64,000 nucleotides of DNA from contig CACWYB010000002.1 in the NCBI GenBank assembly GCA_902765005.1, positions 141,058 to 205,057 of the forward strand, in the 5' to 3' direction. This stretch comes from an uncultured Eubacteriales bacterium. Its GTDB lineage: Bacteria > Bacillota > Clostridia > Christensenellales > CAG-138. The translations under genes were made by a program, and so were the position numbers. Below are positions 20,675 to 44,216 of this stretch, one piece after another. Position 1 is the stretch's first letter, and each line of letters begins with the position of its first letter. Below the pieces are notes generated by a model. It made no database searches. It was given only the letters and a program-made list of their open reading frames with translations, and was not told where the DNA came from.

Positions 20675-20884
20675 ATCGGTTGGATGTGCATAAGGTAGTT
20701 GCATCGGTATCGGCTGAATGTGCATTGGGTGGTCAGATAGGGCGACAACGCATCTGCTGGACGTGCATGAGGTAACTATATCGGCATCTGCTGCATATGC
20801 ATTAGGGGTCAAATGTGCATCGGCTGAATATGACTGAGGTAGCCATATTGGAAAAATCGCATCTGCTGAATATGCATAAGGTAG
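20675..20884 (+). repeat. array of six degenerate direct repeats (24-nt core ATCKGCTGAATRTGCATWAGGTAG)
   Basis: Cores lie at 20675, 20709, 20752, 20786, 20819 and 20861 (spacings 34, 43, 34, 33, 42 nt). The stretch is non-coding, with stops in all frames. It sits exactly at the GC-to-AT switch. Confidence 0.85.
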
Positions 20885-20906
20885 TCAGATTTGAAAGGAA
20901 CCGAAG

Positions 20907-21338
20907 ATGAATAAGCGACTATGGCATTCGCTGCGGATCTCTTGGATGATGAGTTCGGGGAAGAGAGTCGAGTACTTAAGAAAACATAATGTTTTCGGTC
21001 ATATTGGGAAGAACTCTATCTGGCGTGGTAGATTGGTTCCTTTATATGCCGACAGGATATTTCTGGGCGATAACGTGCGTTGCGGATCCAGAGTCTATTT
21101 CATTACGCATGACGTTATTCATGACATGCTGAATCACCGAGAGGGAAATGACTTTGGATTCAAGGAGTTTATTGGGGATATACTGTTCATAGGATCGAAT
21201 TCTACAATTCTCGGTGGTGCAAATATTGGCTCAAACGTGATCGTTGGTGCAGGAAGCCTGGTGAATAAAGACATACCCTCAAATTCTGTTGTGGGGAGGT
21301 ACCGGCCAAGTACATATGTTCGTTTGATGACTTTGTAG
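20907..21338 (+). CDS. hexapeptide-repeat (LbH) acetyltransferase, C-terminus apparently frameshifted
   Basis: LbH repeats are present (IGSNSTILGGANIGSNVIVGAGSLVNKDIPSNSVVG). After the G4 run at 21293-21296 the family-typical tail VPAKYICSFDDFVEKRK continues in another frame, ending at TGA 21365-21367. Confidence 0.7.
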   Translation: MNKRLWHSLRISWMMSSGKRVEYLRKHNVFGHIGKNSIWRGRLVPLYADRIFLGDNVRCGSRVYFITHDVIHDMLNHREGNDFGFKEFIGDILFIGSNSTILGGANIGSNVIVGAGSLVNKDIPSNSVVGRYRPSTYVRLMTL

Positions 21339-21363
21339 AAAAAAGAAAAAGCGCATCTCAGGA

Positions 21364-22020
21364 ATGAGTGACTGGCGGGAAGAGTATATGAAACATAAAC
21401 CTTATGGGCCATATGAAAGATTTATTAAACGACCACAGGATTTTCTGTGTGCATTACTAGCCACGATTGTTCTTTCTCCAGTGTTGCTTATTGTAGCATT
21501 TCTGGTTCGCATAAAGTTGGGTAGTCCCATTTTATTTACCCAGGAACGGCCGGGAAGAAACGGAAGGATATTCAAACTATATAAGTTTCGCACCATGCTT
21601 CCTCCGAAGGACGGTGTGATTGATCCTAAACAGGATGCCGCAAGGTTGACGCCATTCGGTAAGAAATTGCGTAGCACTAGCCTAGACGAGCTCCCTGAAC
21701 TTTTCAACATGTTAAAGGGCGATATGGCAGTGGTTGGTCCTCGGCCTTTGCTTGTCCAGTATCTTGATAGATATGACGAGCATCAAGCGCGTCGTCACGA
21801 GGTAAGACCAGGATTTACAGGACTTGCACAGGTGCATGGCCGGAATGCTATCTCATGGGAAGAAAAGTTTGAATGGGATGTGAAGTATGTGGATCATGTC
21901 ACGTTTCTAGGCGACTGGAAGATCATTTTTGAGACAGTACGAACTGTTTTAAGACGTGACGGAATCAGTGCCGCTGGAGAAGCCACCATGGGGGAGTTTA
22001 TGGGGACGGAGAAGAATTGA
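21364..22020 (+). CDS. small priming phosphoglycosyl transferase (Bac_transf family, PglC/WbaP-C-like)
   Basis: It has one N-terminal TM segment. Family motifs are present (SPILFTQERPGRNGRIFKLYKFRTM, LDELPELFNMLKGDMAVVGPRP). An alternative start is ATG 21391. Confidence 0.85.
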   Translation: MSDWREEYMKHKPYGPYERFIKRPQDFLCALLATIVLSPVLLIVAFLVRIKLGSPILFTQERPGRNGRIFKLYKFRTMLPPKDGVIDPKQDAARLTPFGKKLRSTSLDELPELFNMLKGDMAVVGPRPLLVQYLDRYDEHQARRHEVRPGFTGLAQVHGRNAISWEEKFEWDVKYVDHVTFLGDWKIIFETVRTVLRRDGISAAGEATMGEFMGTEKN

Positions 22021-41999: not shown

Positions 42000-42721
42000 A
42001 GGCGATAATTTTAGCTGCCGGGTATGCCACACGGCTTTATCCTTTGACGGAGAACTATCCCAAGCCGCTGCTCCCCGTCGGAGGAAAGCCAATTTTGGAT
42101 TGGCTGATCGAAGACATAGGCGATGCTGTTGATGAGTTCATCGTTGTGACAAATCATAAGTTCGCTGGTACATTTGAAGAATGGAGCGCAAAGCGATCAG
42201 AGAGAATAACGATCATTGACGATAGAACCAGCACGAATGAGACAAGATTGGGAGCGGTGAAAGATATACAGGTTGCGGTTCCCGGGGTAAAGGAAAGCAC
42301 GGATTATTTCGTCATGGCCGGAGATAATATGCTGGATTTCAGCCTGCGAGGTTTTATCGAGTATGCCAAGAAGAAAAAAGCAAGCTGTATTATGTGTCAT
42401 GAAGAACATAGGCTGGAAGCGCTGCAGAAGACGGCCGTGATCACCATAGAGGAATCAGGACTCATTACCACATATGAGGAAAAGCCGAAGGCGCCGAAAG
42501 GAACGCTTGCAGTTCCGCCGTTTTATATCTACCGTGCAGAAGATATAAGTCGAATTCAGGAAGCTATTGACGGTGGGTGTGGCTTCGACGCACCCGGTTC
42601 CTTTGCGGCGTGGCTGAGCACGAAGGTCGCAATGTATGCATACCTCATGCCCGGCCATAGATATGATATTGGAGATATCGCCTCCTATGAGGCGGTGAAA
42701 GAAAAGTTTAATACTATATAG
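41996..42721 (+). CDS. sugar-1-phosphate nucleotidylyltransferase
   Basis: 241 aa with [34 protein letters not shown]. The ATGA start/stop overlaps the kinase gene. Confidence 0.75.
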   Translation: [241 protein letters not shown]

Positions 42722-42796
42722 CAGGAATGCTTTTTTATTGTGCGCCGGCCAGTGAAGCAACGAAAAATGCAGCCTGGGAATGGGAGATATAATAGT

Positions 42797-44029
42797 ATGA
42801 ACATTGCAGTAGCAGGAACAGGATATGTAGGTCTTTCATTGGCAGTGCTTTTGAGTCAGCACAATCATGTGACCGCCGTTGATATCCTGCCTGAGAAAGT
42901 TGAAAAGATCAATACTTGGAAAAGCCCGATCCAGGATGACTTTATTGAGAAGTATTTAGCGGAACATAAGGAACGGAAACTCGACCTGTCTGCAACAACA
43001 AATGCCGTTAGTGCCTATGCATCTGCAGATTATGTGGTCATCGCTGCTCCGACAAACTATGATCCGCAGAAAAACTTTTTTGATTGTTCTGCCGTAGAGA
43101 GCGTCATTGAGCTGGTGCTTCAATCTTCGGACACAGCCATAATGGTCATAAAATCCACCATTCCAGTTGGCTACACAGAGCGTGTGAGGGAAAAGTATCA
43201 CACGGATCGCATCCTGTTCAGCCCGGAGTTCTTGAGAGAGTCAAAAGCACTGTATGATAACCTTTATCCGAGTCGAATTATAGTAGGCTGCGATGAGGCA
43301 TCTAAACCCGCAGCTGAAGTATTCGCTCGTCTTCTGCAGGAAGGCGCTGAAAAACCGGATATCGATACGCTCTTTATGGGGTTTACAGAGGCAGAGGCGG
43401 TCAAGCTCTTCGCCAATACGTATCTAGCCCTTCGAGTCAGCTATTTTAATGAACTGGACACCTATGCCGAGATGAAGGGGCTGAATACTAAGGATATAAT
43501 CGATGGTGTATGCCTCGATCCTCGAATCGGTTCTCATTATAACAATCCGTCCTTTGGATACGGCGGATACTGCCTGCCGAAGGATACAAAGCAGCTTCTG
43601 GCAAACTATGCGGATGTACCGGAAAATCTGATTCAGGCGATTGTTGAGAGCAATAGAACAAGGAAAGACTTTATTGCTGACCGCGTCCTGGATAAGGCTG
43701 GGTATTACACGGCCTCCAGCATGTGGAATGCCGAGAAAGAGCGACCGCTGATCGTTGGCGTTTATCGGCTGACGATGAAGGCGAACTCCGATAACTTCCG
43801 ACAGAGCAGCATCCAAGGCGTCATGAAGCGTATAAAAGCCAAAGGTGCAACCGTCATCATTTACGAACCGACTCTCCAAGATGGAACGACCTTCTTCGGA
43901 AGCCTTGTAGTGAATGACATCGAGAAGTTTAAAAACGGATCAGATGCAATAATAGCAAACAGATATGACTCCATATTGGATGACGTGGGAGAGAAGGTTT
44001 ACACGAGAGACCTGTTCCGAAGAGATTAA
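42797..44029 (+). CDS. ugd: UDP-glucose 6-dehydrogenase
   Basis: Start taken at [14 protein letters not shown] (ATG 42797). It has SPEFLRE and the catalytic Cys context [10 protein letters not shown]. It is the last gene of the AT-rich cassette. Confidence 0.9.
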
Positions 44030-44216
44030 GACCTTCATACTTACGCCTCAAGTAAGCTAGAAGTATATGTGAAGGAGACAACCGTGAGATTGTTGTGCCG
44101 GTATTTTCAATGGATTGTTTTTTCTCTAAATCGAGATTCGTTTTATACTGAAGCTTCGGCAACAACACGATAGCTGACATCCAGTACTTATACTTTTTCA
44201 TATTCTCAATGGGCAC

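What the first reader, a model, noticed from the sequence alone, without database searches (positions are those of the whole stretch)
20675..44216. Sharply AT-rich ~23.5-kb mosaic cassette inside a GC-rich polysaccharide locus, with no mobility genes
Spot GC counts on single 60-nt lines give 58% at 19501 (in the DegT-like gene), 42% at 21001 and 38% at 27301. The switch occurs inside two intergenic gaps, 20675-20906 and 44030-44216. The flanks are GC-rich and carry the generic machinery. On the left are the NusG paralog, two LCPs, the CapD/PglF-like dehydratase and the DegT aminotransferase. On the right are the third LCP and the Wzz-like gene. The AT-rich core carries all the structure-specifying genes: transferases, Wzy, Wzx, sugar-nucleotide pathways and modifying enzymes. 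The core itself looks patchy. The rml block (31927-35619) and 39732-44029 are visibly less AT-rich than 20907-31873 and 35641-39710, and the core holds two gene remnants. I see no integrase, transposase, tRNA or terminal inverted repeats. This matches serotype-cassette replacement by homologous recombination in conserved flanks, with donors from much lower-GC bacteria.
Basis: partly seen in the sequence, partly recalled or inferred. Interest (0 to 1): 0.65.

Follow-up and report, generated by a model that had tools for sequence, protein, structure and literature searches.

The report
AT-rich swappable cell-wall polysaccharide gene cassette
A 23.5-kb AT-rich block of sugar-polymer genes sits between two GC-rich conserved genes of an uncultured rumen bacterium, and close relatives carry different blocks at exactly the same spot. 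This is the classic swappable "serotype cassette" long known from Salmonella and pneumococcus, here in a new lineage.

Summary
Flanks are 61.4% GC and the core 20675-44216 is 41.9%, and the step takes about 200 bp in each of the two intergenic gaps. GC3 falls from 0.70-0.88 to 0.29-0.58. The tetranucleotide profile flips at the same places. An independent assembly tiles both junctions at even depth, so this is not a chimera.

The core is a complete Wzx/Wzy-type cell-wall polysaccharide cassette with two gene remnants and no mobility genes.

Two conspecific contigs (about 97% nt in the flanks) and four from a sister species (about 84-85%) share the right flank. Similarity stops exactly at the LCP3 stop codon (44217) and different cassettes follow. 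On the left it stops within 8 nt after the DegT stop codon. The conspecific cassette is a mosaic of the window's: segments at 80%, 95% and 85% identity, others absent. Identity in the flanks decays towards the cassette.

Sister cassettes at 82-99% nt occur in other rumen contigs. The clause "donors from much lower-GC bacteria" is not shown. Across 54 DegT loci the variable part is AT-richer than its host in 22 and never GC-richer.

This is a new member of a textbook kind. Side finding: a conserved 6-unit repeat array fills the left gap, and its 17-nt core also lies next to where a serine-recombinase element interrupts DegT in the sister species.

The parts
13112..13645 (+). NusG paralog (LoaP/UpxY/RfaH-like) at the head of the locus, followed by its own strong terminator (13648-13688) and a promoter-like site (13737-13765)
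   Evidence: NCBIfam LoaP NF033641 E=3e-18, but 66.5 bits is below the 125-bit cutoff. Terminator and promoter scan. GC3 0.87.
13983..17172 (+). Two LCP (LytR-CpsA-Psr) ligase genes, LCP1 and LCP2. Host-like composition. Absent between the NusG paralog and PglF in the relative L002.
   Evidence: Pfam PF03816 E=1.8e-28 and 2.5e-26. GC3 0.79 and 0.70. Synteny with L002.
17233..19278 (+). PglF/CapD-like membrane-anchored UDP-sugar 4,6-dehydratase (conserved part)
   Evidence: Pfam Polysacc_synt_2 E=4.5e-114 plus CoA_binding_3. GC3 0.81.
19364..20674 (+). DegT/PglE-like sugar aminotransferase. It is the left homology arm. Similarity to relatives ends at its stop codon.
   Evidence: Pfam PF01041 E=6.5e-72. 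70-89% aa identity in 80 genome loci. blastn end points 20667-20682. Its GC3 tracks host GC, r=0.78.
20675..20906 (.). Left junction gap. Six direct repeats with a 33-43 nt period and core ATCKGCTGNATATGCAT. There is no predicted terminator.
   Evidence: 7 matches against 0.07 expected. Terminator scan. The same array family follows DegT in L007, L040, L077 and L086/87.
20907..21338 (+). Short (143 aa) left-handed beta-helix acyltransferase. It is the candidate N-acyltransferase for the 4-amino sugar.
   Evidence: Pfam Hexapep E=7e-7. NCBIfam hits are all far below their cutoffs. 83% aa to L066 and 86.5% nt to L094.
21364..22020 (+). Small PglC-type phosphoglycosyl transferase (priming enzyme)
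   Evidence: Pfam Bac_transf E=7.7e-60. 86% aa to L020, 82% aa to Selenomonas L019, only 80% nt to conspecific L088.
22017..23594 (+). ATP-grasp ligase fused to a HAD phosphatase
   Evidence: Pfam PylC-like_N, ATP-grasp_3 and HAD_2. NCBIfam PRK12767 family.
23616..26274 (+). LicD-family phosphotransferase, ribitol-5-phosphate cytidylyltransferase-like gene and an SDR. Together they form a CDP-ribitol / ribitol-phosphate decoration module.
   Evidence: Pfam LicD E=8.7e-41 and IspD E=7.7e-39. NCBIfam NF001183 at 196.6 bits exceeds its 166-bit cutoff. 94.9% nt to conspecific L088 and 95.8% to L094.
26278..30753 (+). GT2 glycosyltransferase, WaaS/CpsH-family glycosyltransferase, WbbJ-like O-acetyltransferase, TOD1/MUCI70-like transferase and an SDR. 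This is the lowest-GC, most strain-specific segment.
   Evidence: GC3 0.29-0.37. A close match only in L096, 94.7% nt. Recurrent breakpoint at 26905-26966 inside the GT2 gene.
30731..31873 (+). Wzy-type repeat-unit polymerase (EpsG family)
   Evidence: Pfam EpsG E=2.1e-9, 37.4 bits against a 30.1-bit cutoff. 9 hydrophobic segments. Only 35 homologs at E<=1e-10, the best at 98, 97 and 81%.
31927..35619 (+). rmlA-rmlB-rmlD-rmlC, the dTDP-L-rhamnose pathway. Intermediate GC.
   Evidence: Pfam E=6e-76 to 1e-92. 95.0% nt to L092, 94.7% to L096 and 85.0% to conspecific L084.
35632..36564 (+). TupA-like ATP-grasp enzyme. Inferred to add an amino acid to the polymer.
   Evidence: Pfam PF14305 E=8e-64. 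Recurrent breakpoint at 36164.
36594..36986 (+). Remnant: C-terminal half of a second TupA-like gene
   Evidence: Pfam PF14305 profile positions 122-240 of 241, E=1.6e-17. 98% aa to a 147-aa ORF in L092. No ORF of 100 aa or more here.
37005..38510 (+). Wzx-type (MOP superfamily) flippase
   Evidence: No Pfam or NCBIfam hit. AlphaFold model pLDDT 86.5, pTM 0.85. Best PDB matches are MurJ (TM 0.68-0.73), and MATE and WzxE also match. Homologs at 58-60% are named O-antigen/teichoic acid export protein.
38522..38623 (+). Remnant and deletion scar: the first 34 codons of a radical-SAM (lysine-aminomutase-like) gene. The rest of that gene and a PhzF-like gene are present in L092 and L093 but missing here.
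38676..39710 (+). Acyl_transf_3 membrane O-acyltransferase
   Evidence: Pfam PF01757 E=5.5e-23.
39732..44029 (+). Sugar-nucleotide supply block: SDR epimerase/dehydratase, galactokinase-like GHMP kinase, sugar-1-phosphate nucleotidyltransferase and UDP-glucose 6-dehydrogenase
   Evidence: 88.9% and 81.8% nt to L092. Absent from conspecific L084.
44030..44216 (.). Right junction gap between convergent genes
   Evidence: GC 0.35-0.44 in 100-bp bins. Sequence unrelated to L082 and L083 at the same place.
44217..45767 (-). Third LCP ligase gene (LCP3). It is the right homology arm. Similarity to all relatives ends at its stop codon.
   Evidence: Pfam PF03816 E=9e-29.. Identity to the conspecific strain is only 88-95% here, against about 98.5% further out.
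45952..47412 (-). Polysaccharide co-polymerase (Wzz/CpsC-like) gene: two TM segments flank a coiled-coil ectodomain, with a C-terminal cytoplasmic domain
   Evidence: NCBIfam TIGR01006 C-terminal match E=1e-9, below cutoff. Weak Pfam Wzz and GNVR hits. Topology. GC3 0.84 on the minus strand.

Best explanation
The region is the strain-variable centre of a Wzx/Wzy-dependent, LCP-anchored cell-wall polysaccharide locus in an uncultured high-GC rumen bacterium of the Clostridia.

Conserved, compositionally resident genes frame it. On the left are the NusG paralog, two LCP genes, a PglF-like dehydratase and DegT. On the right are a third LCP gene and a Wzz-like co-polymerase. These genes act as homology arms.

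Whole cassettes or cassette segments from a rumen-wide pool of AT-rich polysaccharide genes are exchanged by homologous recombination. Crossovers fall in the arms and at recurrent points inside the cassette. Turnover is fast enough that the cassette never drifts to the host's 61% GC.

Inferred biochemistry:
- A 4-amino-4,6-dideoxy-HexNAc is made by the conserved PglF-like and DegT enzymes.
- It is N-acylated and loaded onto undecaprenyl phosphate by the variable acyltransferase (or ATP-grasp ligase) and the small phosphoglycosyl transferase.
- The repeat unit is extended with rhamnose and uronic acid.
- It is decorated with ribitol phosphate (LicD plus CDP-ribitol genes), O-acyl groups and possibly an amino acid (TupA).
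- It is flipped by the MOP flippase, polymerised by the EpsG-type Wzy and attached to the wall by the LCP enzymes.

Shown: composition, gene content, alternative cassettes at fixed junctions, mosaicism and the flank gradient. Inferred: the recombination mechanism, the glycan chemistry, single-operon transcription and the selective driver (phage or host pressure).
For: Composition step.

Complete pathway inventory. Flippase fold.

Ordinary chromosomal flanks syntenic with genome RUG472 (L002) at 76-88% nt over 5048-20667.

Same right flank, different neighbours, junction always at 44217:
- L082 and L084, 97% nt.
- L083, 84%, with a cassette holding Wzx, an AMP-ligase, ACP, KASIII and Wzy.
- L085-87, 84.7%.

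Whole conspecific cassette (L088 plus L084, one 49-kb contig) compared with the window:
- Left flank 95.7%.
- 20683-21385 unrelated.
- 21386-23496 at 80.0%.
- 23573-26966 at 94.9%.
- 26967-31926 unrelated.
- rml block at 85.0%.
- 35610-44216 absent.

Flank identity falls from about 98.5% to 88-95% next to the cassette.

Sister cassettes elsewhere:
- L096, 94.7% over 23761-36164.
- L094, 95.8% over 22011-26905 and 86% over 30790-36164.
- L092, 95.0% over 31927-38611.
- L093, 99.3% over 36040-38611.
- Breakpoints recur at about 26.9 kb, 31.93 kb, 36.16 kb and 38.61 kb.

No terminator-like site in the left gap, and all core genes are co-directional.

Independent assembly at even depth.

The same pattern is described for Salmonella O-antigen clusters: all segments are below genome GC, wzx/wzy/GT are lowest and rml is intermediate (PMC3715488).
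Against: - No two complete genomes of the species were compared. All relatives are metagenome contigs.
- Recombination is inferred from patterns, not observed.
- No donor lineage was identified.
- In a sister species the same locus holds a serine-recombinase element, so site-specific events also remodel this region.
- The glycan structure and its expression are untested.
Confidence: 0.85

Rival explanations
1. The AT-richness is a standing property of the shared cassette gene pool. It could be kept by continual turnover, AT-biased mutation under weak selection, or selection on membrane-protein and low-expression genes. On this view no much-lower-GC donor organism is needed, and exchange could be mainly among related high- and mid-GC rumen Clostridia. 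This rivals only the donor clause of the interpretation.
For: - In 54 DegT loci the downstream variable region is lower in GC than the upstream host DNA by 5.6 points on average. It is more than 5 points lower in 22 loci and more than 5 points higher in none. This includes hosts of 45-51% GC that drop to 33-36%.
- The conspecific strain and every sister cassette show the same GC patchwork.
- Reeves et al. note that wzx and wzy being lowest in GC in many clusters "needs explanation" (PMC3715488).
Against: - rmlA relatives at 90% aa or more are labelled Lachnospiraceae.
- The priming module is 80-82% aa identical in a Selenomonas genome.
- L092/L099 carries 12 kb of the cassette at 82-95% nt in a 40-49% GC context without this host's flank.
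- A GC3 of 0.30 in a host at 0.80 is far from equilibrium.
Confidence: 0.35
2. The block is a mobile genomic island (ICE, prophage or transposon) inserted by site-specific or transpositional recombination.
For: - Sharp compositional borders.
- In sister-species contigs L085-87 an element with three large serine recombinases lies at this locus, inserted in DegT.
Against: - No recombinase, transposase, tRNA or terminal repeats in or around 20675-44216.
- Every gene is a polysaccharide gene.
- The borders coincide with the stop codons of functionally linked genes.
- Relatives hold functionally equivalent cassettes, not an empty site.
Confidence: 0.04
3. The GC step is an assembly or binning chimera that joins DNA of two organisms.
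For: The window is a metagenome-derived contig. GC steps of 20 points are a classic sign of a chimera.
Against: - Independent Logan contigs of run X1 span both junctions with 0 differences and near-equal depth: 27-28 in the core, 26-37 in the flanks.
- The ENA contig L001 from another assembly spans the left junction identically.
- The conspecific contig NODE_1255 shows the same architecture.
Confidence: 0.01
4. The core genes are ancestral residents that became AT-rich in place, with no import.
For: The drop is systematic across lineages.
Against: - Strains with 97% identical flanks have unrelated genes, or genes only 80-85% identical, at the same positions.
- Copies at 95-99% nt exist in other contexts.
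Confidence: 0.03

Closest known systems
O-antigen gene clusters of Salmonella enterica and E. coli (between galF and gnd)
   Same: - Fixed chromosomal site with conserved flanking genes.
- Alternative cassettes between strains.
- All segments below genome GC, with wzx, wzy and glycosyltransferase genes lowest and rml intermediate.
- Mosaic segments with different histories, and hitch-hiking divergence in flank genes.
The GC pattern, mosaic segments and lateral-transfer reading are described in PMC3715488. The galF-gnd site and flank hitch-hiking are from my own knowledge.
   Different: - Here the host is a Gram-positive-type rumen Clostridia bacterium at 61% GC, so the contrast is larger (about 20 points).
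- The arms are DegT and an LCP ligase gene.
- The polymer is presumably wall-anchored by LCP enzymes rather than ligated to lipid A-core.
Streptococcus pneumoniae cps locus (dexB-aliA) and other Gram-positive Wzy-dependent capsule or wall-polysaccharide loci (my own knowledge)
   Same: - Conserved 5' genes (an LCP gene such as cpsA, and chain-length regulators).
- Serotype-specific central genes (transferases, wzy, wzx).
- Sugar-nucleotide genes such as rml and ugd at the 3' end.
- Serotype switching by recombination in the flanks.
   Different: - There are three LCP genes.
- The co-polymerase lies on the far side, on the opposite strand.
- No CpsB or CpsD phosphatase/kinase pair was found.
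- A NusG paralog heads the locus.
- The pneumococcal loci are usually flanked by IS elements, which are absent here.
Bacteroides capsule operons with UpxY, and Firmicutes operons with LoaP (NusG-paralog antitermination; PMC11685472, PMC12691694)
   Same: A specialised NusG paralog sits at the head of a long, co-directional, AT-rich polysaccharide operon.
   Different: - The paralog scores below the curated LoaP and UpxY cutoffs.
- It is followed by its own terminator.
- No recruitment element was identified.
- Its function was not tested.
Campylobacter/Neisseria Pgl-type priming module (PglF, PglE, PglD, PglC) for di-N-acetylbacillosamine (my own knowledge)
   Same: Gene order: membrane dehydratase, then aminotransferase, then hexapeptide acyltransferase, then a small Bac_transf phosphoglycosyl transferase.
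   Different: - The acyltransferase is only 143 aa and lacks the N-terminal domain of PglD.
- An ATP-grasp-HAD fusion follows.
- The conserved/variable border runs through the middle of the module.

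Membership tests
Wzx/Wzy-dependent polysaccharide locus | Initiating polyprenyl-phosphate phosphoglycosyl transferase | tested here: met
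   21364-22020, Pfam Bac_transf E=7.7e-60, full-length domain.
Wzx/Wzy-dependent polysaccharide locus | Wzy repeat-unit polymerase | tested here: met
   30731-31873, Pfam EpsG 37.4 bits against a 30.1-bit cutoff. 9 hydrophobic segments.
Wzx/Wzy-dependent polysaccharide locus | Wzx (MOP superfamily) flippase | tested here: met
   37005-38510 has no HMM hit. The model (pLDDT 86.5) matches MurJ at TM 0.68-0.73 and also WzxE. Homologs are named export proteins. Substrate not tested.
Wzx/Wzy-dependent polysaccharide locus | Polysaccharide co-polymerase (Wzz/CpsC) | tested here: inconclusive
   45952-47412(-) has a two-TM topology with a coiled-coil ectodomain. All HMM matches are below cutoff.
Wzx/Wzy-dependent polysaccharide locus | LCP ligase(s) for wall attachment (Gram-positive form) | tested here: met
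   Three PF03816 proteins, E=1e-26 to 1e-29.
Serotype-type cassette exchanged between conserved flanks | Same chromosomal site holds different gene sets in close relatives | tested here: met
   Five different right-hand neighbours of LCP3 were found (the window, L082, L083, L084 and L085-87). A full alternative cassette is present in the conspecific L088+L084 contig.
Serotype-type cassette exchanged between conserved flanks | Junctions at the same positions in the flanking genes | tested here: met
   The right junction is at 44217 in all six contigs. The left junction is at 20667-20682.
Serotype-type cassette exchanged between conserved flanks | Atypical (lower) GC, with wzx/wzy/GT lowest and rml intermediate | tested here: met
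   Compared with PMC3715488.
Serotype-type cassette exchanged between conserved flanks | Raised divergence of flank genes next to the cassette (recombination tracts) | tested here: met
   Identity is 88-95% in 44171-46170, against 97-99% beyond 48 kb.
Serotype-type cassette exchanged between conserved flanks | Different cassettes give different glycan structures or serotypes | not testable with these tools
   The organism is uncultured and no structural or serological data exist.
Genomic island / ICE / prophage | Integrase, recombinase or transposase in or beside the block | tested here: not met
   None among the 23 core genes or their neighbours.
Genomic island / ICE / prophage | Insertion at a tRNA or bounded by att-like direct repeats | tested here: not met
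   No tRNA. The two junction stretches were scanned separately and neither shows att-like or terminal repeats; a direct cross-comparison of the two ends was not run.
Pgl-type di-N-acetylbacillosamine priming module | PglF-like 4,6-dehydratase plus PglE-like aminotransferase | tested here: met
   Polysacc_synt_2 E=4.5e-114 and DegT E=6.5e-72. Family-level assignment only.
Pgl-type di-N-acetylbacillosamine priming module | PglD-type (NeuD/PglB/VioB) N-acetyltransferase | tested here: inconclusive
   20907-21338 is 143 aa. It scores 41.7 bits on TIGR03570 against a 160.8-bit cutoff, with only the C-terminal 42 residues aligned.
LoaP-type processive antiterminator | Protein meets the curated family threshold | tested here: not met
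   NF033641 scores 66.5 bits against a 125-bit cutoff. UpxY scores 30.4 against 100. It is a NusG paralog of uncertain subfamily.

The most novel reading that the evidence does not exclude
The six-unit repeat array that fills the conserved/variable boundary (20675-20896) may be a functional element that travels with DegT across rumen lineages.

Its 17-nt core is the inverted copy of a DNA-conserved DegT site (20468-20484). A large-serine-recombinase element is inserted 3-6 nt from that site in a sister species. The array could be a set of recombinase half-site-like sequences, or an operator or RNA-protein binding array. Such an element might steer recombination or expression at the cassette border, as a Gram-positive counterpart of JUMPstart/ops-type boundary elements.
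Probability: 0.12. Interest if true: 0.55.

Novelty: new member of a known kind. Interest (0 to 1): 0.3.

Why it matters
It shows that uncultured high-GC rumen Clostridia diversify their wall polysaccharide in the same way as well-studied pathogens. They use fixed homology arms and draw on a community-wide pool of AT-rich cassette segments with recurrent breakpoints.

This has practical use. DegT and the LCP gene can serve as anchors to type and catalogue cassettes in rumen metagenomes. The 20-point GC step is a binning hazard. Strain-level surface diversity is relevant to phage-host matching.

It does not change how such loci are understood.

Tried and rejected
- Exact look-up of my LCP3 ORF found nothing, probably because the gene caller used a different start codon. 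The gene was reached through its 90% cluster instead.
- Look-up of P0123 found nothing.
- A metagenome-contig scan with Wzy found no relative. The protein search then found 35.
- The host of the sister cassette L092 could not be resolved. Extending it (L099) gave three unknown genes and an HTH gene at 40-46% GC, with no Pfam hits.
- Pairwise BLASTP of the 501-aa protein against two annotated Wzx proteins was inconclusive, E=0.3-0.5. A fold search settled it.
- The repeat array is not a structured RNA. The fold z-score is 0.17 and 28 aligned units give no consensus pair. It is not coding, because the periods are not multiples of 3. There is no Rfam family.
- The mobile-island and chimera readings were rejected (see the rival explanations).
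- The match between the array core and DegT is partly explained by the palindrome TGCATATGCA, so I do not treat it as antisense regulation.

Full report
**1. Observation**

A 1-kb composition profile shows 0.51-0.70 GC from 1 to 20 kb and from 45 to 64 kb. Between 21 and 44 kb it is 0.34-0.49. The flanks together are 0.614 and the core 20675-44216 is 0.419. In 100-bp bins the change is complete within 20600-20900 and 44100-44300.

Third-codon-position GC is 0.70-0.88 in flank genes and 0.29-0.58 in core genes. The core has five blocks:
- 20907-23594: 0.43-0.47.
- 23616-31873: 0.29-0.41, with one SDR gene at 0.485.
- rmlABDC, 31927-35619: 0.50-0.58.
- 35632-39710: 0.31-0.37.
- 39732-44029: 0.45-0.56.

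Tetranucleotide correlation with the flank average is 0.87-0.97 outside the core and -0.40 to 0.22 inside. There is no tRNA and no Rfam family.

The block is not a chimera. Logan contigs of an independent bovine run (X1) tile 18500-49900 without a single difference, apart from an 85-bp gap at 43480-43564. Single contigs cross both junctions. Depth is 27-28 in the core and 26-37 in the flanks.

**2. Anatomy**

The outer flanks are ordinary chromosome. They hold a methionine ABC transporter, NadE, a GalE-like epimerase, BioY, BirA, ComEC, Ogt and FtsA.

The locus proper starts with a NusG paralog at 13112-13645. It is LoaP-like but scores below the curated cutoff. It has its own terminator, followed by a good promoter-like site. 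Next come two LCP ligase genes, a PglF/CapD-like dehydratase and a DegT aminotransferase.

All 23 core genes lie on the plus strand. They are:
- a 143-aa hexapeptide acyltransferase;
- a small Bac_transf priming transferase;
- an ATP-grasp-HAD fusion;
- LicD, a ribitol-5-phosphate cytidylyltransferase-like gene and an SDR;
- GT2, WaaS/CpsH-family and TOD1-like transferases;
- a WbbJ-like O-acetyltransferase;
- a second SDR;
- an EpsG-type Wzy;
- rmlABDC;
- a TupA-like ATP-grasp enzyme;
- a 501-aa membrane protein;
- an Acyl_transf_3 acyltransferase;
- an SDR epimerase, a galactokinase-like kinase, a nucleotidyltransferase and UDP-glucose dehydrogenase.

The 501-aa protein has no HMM hit. It is nevertheless a MOP flippase. 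The AlphaFold model (pLDDT 86.5) matches MurJ at TM 0.68-0.73 and also WzxE. Homologs at 58-60% identity are named export proteins.

On the right are a third LCP gene on the minus strand and a Wzz/CpsC-like co-polymerase at 45952-47412, also on the minus strand. The overlapping plus-strand ORF is a shadow.

There are two remnants. One is the C-terminal half of a second TupA-like gene (36594-36986). The other is the first 34 codons of a radical-SAM gene (38522-38623). The rest of that gene, and a PhzF-like neighbour, are present in sister cassettes.

**3. Host and left flank**

DegT homologs at 70-89% aa were found in 80 species-representative genomes. Nearly all are rumen or gut MAGs: Oscillospiraceae, Ruminococcaceae, Lachnospiraceae, Selenomonas, Erysipelotrichaceae and a few others.

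The closest is RUG472, "uncultured Clostridiales" (L002). It is syntenic with window 5048-20667 at 76-88% nt, and similarity ends at the DegT stop codon. Its downstream genes differ: only the priming transferase (55% aa) and rmlAB (89-91% aa, 76% nt) are shared.

Across 54 loci with enough flanking DNA, DegT GC3 tracks the host (r=0.78). The region downstream is lower in GC by 5.6 points on average. It is more than 5 points lower in 22 loci and more than 5 points higher in none. The window (about 20 points) and L005 (23 points) are the extremes.

**4. Same site, different cassettes**

The 90% cluster of LCP3 has 23 members. Contigs carrying them share the right flank with the window. L082 and L084 match at 97.1-97.3% nt and are conspecific. 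L083 and L085-87 match at 84-85% and are a sister species. In every case similarity ends exactly at 44217 and different DNA follows:
- L083: a cassette with Wzx, an AMP-ligase, ACP, KASIII and Wzy.
- L084: rmlCDBA directly against LCP3.
- L082: an HTH gene.
- L085-87: cassette remnants beside an element with three large serine recombinases.

L088 and L084 are two views of one 49-kb contig. Together they give the whole conspecific cassette. Against the window:
- left flank 95.7%;
- 20683-21385 unrelated;
- 21386-23496 at 80.0%;
- an extra 380-aa gene;
- 23573-26966 at 94.9%;
- 26967-31926 unrelated;
- rml at 85.0%;
- 35610-44216 absent.

Flank identity to this strain falls from about 98.5% beyond 49 kb to 88-95% inside LCP3 and the co-polymerase gene. 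That is the expected trace of recombination tracts that end in the arms.

**5. Cassette pool**

Parts of the window's cassette occur in other rumen contigs:
- L096 matches at 94.7% over 23761-36164.
- L094 matches at 95.8% over 22011-26905 and 86% over 30790-36164.
- L092 matches at 95.0% over 31927-38611, 88.9% over 38609-42713 and 81.8% over 42796-44028.
- L093 matches at 99.3% over 36040-38611.

Breakpoints recur: inside the GT2 gene at about 26.9 kb, at the rmlA start, inside TupA at 36164, and at 38611.

These contigs are 34-49% GC throughout. L092/L099 continues into unrelated 40-46% GC genes rather than into LCP3. Run X3 holds yet another strain that follows the window to about 26.6 kb and then diverges.

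Cluster members at 90% aa or more for RmlA are labelled Lachnospiraceae. The priming module is 80-82% aa identical in Selenomonas sp. AE3005.

**6. Interpretation**

The evidence fits replacement and reshuffling of a serotype-type cassette by homologous recombination between conserved arms. There is no sign of a mobile island: no recombinase, tRNA or att repeats.

The donor clause is not established. The variable part is systematically AT-richer in all kinds of hosts, and the GC patchwork is inherited with the cassette. Both points suit an intrinsically AT-rich, fast-turning-over gene pool as well as they suit specific low-GC donors.

The pattern is the one described for Salmonella O-antigen clusters. 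There, all segments are below genome GC, wzx, wzy and glycosyltransferase genes are at 28-37%, and rml is intermediate. It was read as lateral transfer with unidentified sources (PMC3715488). NusG-paralog control of long polysaccharide operons is likewise known.

**7. Side finding**

The left gap is not random spacer. It holds six direct repeats with a 33-43 nt period and the core ATCKGCTGNATATGCAT. The motif occurs 7 times in the window against 0.07 expected. The seventh copy is a perfect inverted one inside DegT at 20468-20484, over the codons M-H-M-Q-P-I.

The same array family, with 4-7 units, follows DegT in L007, L040 and L077, and follows the DegT remnant in L086/87. It is absent from the conspecific L088 and from L002. 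Its copy number varies in run X3. It has no stable or conserved RNA fold.

In L085-87 the serine-recombinase element is inserted in DegT. Its junction is 3-6 nt from that same site. The site is conserved at the DNA level, with 2 mismatches or fewer, in 70 of 80 loci. Whether the array and the integration site are functionally linked is unknown.

**8. Verdict**

The kind of locus is well known, and this is a new lineage for it.

Noticed in passing
window 20673-20896; also L040 11265-11490, L077 11323-11590, L007 11314-11550, L086 13226-13340: An array of 4-7 direct repeats (33-43 nt period, core ATCKGCTGNATATGCAT) lies directly downstream of DegT in several unrelated rumen lineages. It is absent from the conspecific strain L088. 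Its copy number varies in run X3. It has no RNA structure and is non-coding. Function unknown.
   Followed up: partly
window 20462-20485 (inside DegT); L085 11937-12160; L086/L087 13226-13720: In a sister species an element with three large serine recombinases, an AAA_25 ATPase, HTH genes and Fic or AbiEii genes is inserted into DegT. Its junction is 3-6 nt from the palindrome-bearing site ATGCATATGCAGCCGAT. The element end carries four TTTGACGG[AT]TGGG repeats. The DegT site looks like an attB. Only one element end was visible.
   Followed up: partly
window 10456-11271 (GNAT gene 10662-11147): A second, small low-GC islet: a GNAT acetyltransferase gene at 40% GC (GC3 0.43). The syntenic relative L002 lacks it, with 78 bp in place of 815 bp.
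   Followed up: partly
window 13700-17200: The two LCP genes between the NusG paralog and the PglF-like gene are missing at that position in L002. They have slightly lower GC3 (0.70-0.79) than other flank genes. Identity to the conspecific strain is only 92-93% at 15019-15618. The 'conserved' left flank has therefore itself been remodelled.
   Followed up: no
window 19364-20674 and loci L002-L081: DegT is unusually conserved: 70-89% aa identity across contigs labelled Clostridia, Negativicutes and Erysipelotrichaceae, and even bins labelled Bacteroidota, Planctomycetales and Saccharibacteria. Its GC3 nonetheless follows each host (0.31-0.89). Some labels may be binning errors.
   Followed up: partly
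window 38511-38675 versus L092 11507-13730 and L093: The window has lost a radical-SAM (lysine-2,3-aminomutase-like) gene and a PhzF-like gene that sister cassettes carry between the flippase and the acyltransferase. Only 34 codons remain. This points to a lost amino-acid-derived decoration.
   Followed up: partly
window 13648-13765: A very strong intrinsic-terminator-like hairpin (18 pairs plus a T run) lies right after the NusG paralog. A near-consensus promoter (TTGACT-17-TATAAT) follows, ahead of LCP1.
   Followed up: no
window 45937-47430 (+) versus 45952-47412 (-): Two nearly full-length overlapping ORFs lie on opposite strands. GC3 (0.84 against 0.60) and the homologous genes called in relatives show that the minus-strand one is the real co-polymerase gene.
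   Followed up: yes
L092 17822-20352: The sister cassette has two tandem UDP-glucose dehydrogenase paralogs. The window keeps one, which is 92% aa identical to the second copy and 63% to the first.
   Followed up: no
window 2136-4589 (-): An 817-aa BspA-type leucine-rich-repeat surface protein gene lies in the far left flank.
   Followed up: no
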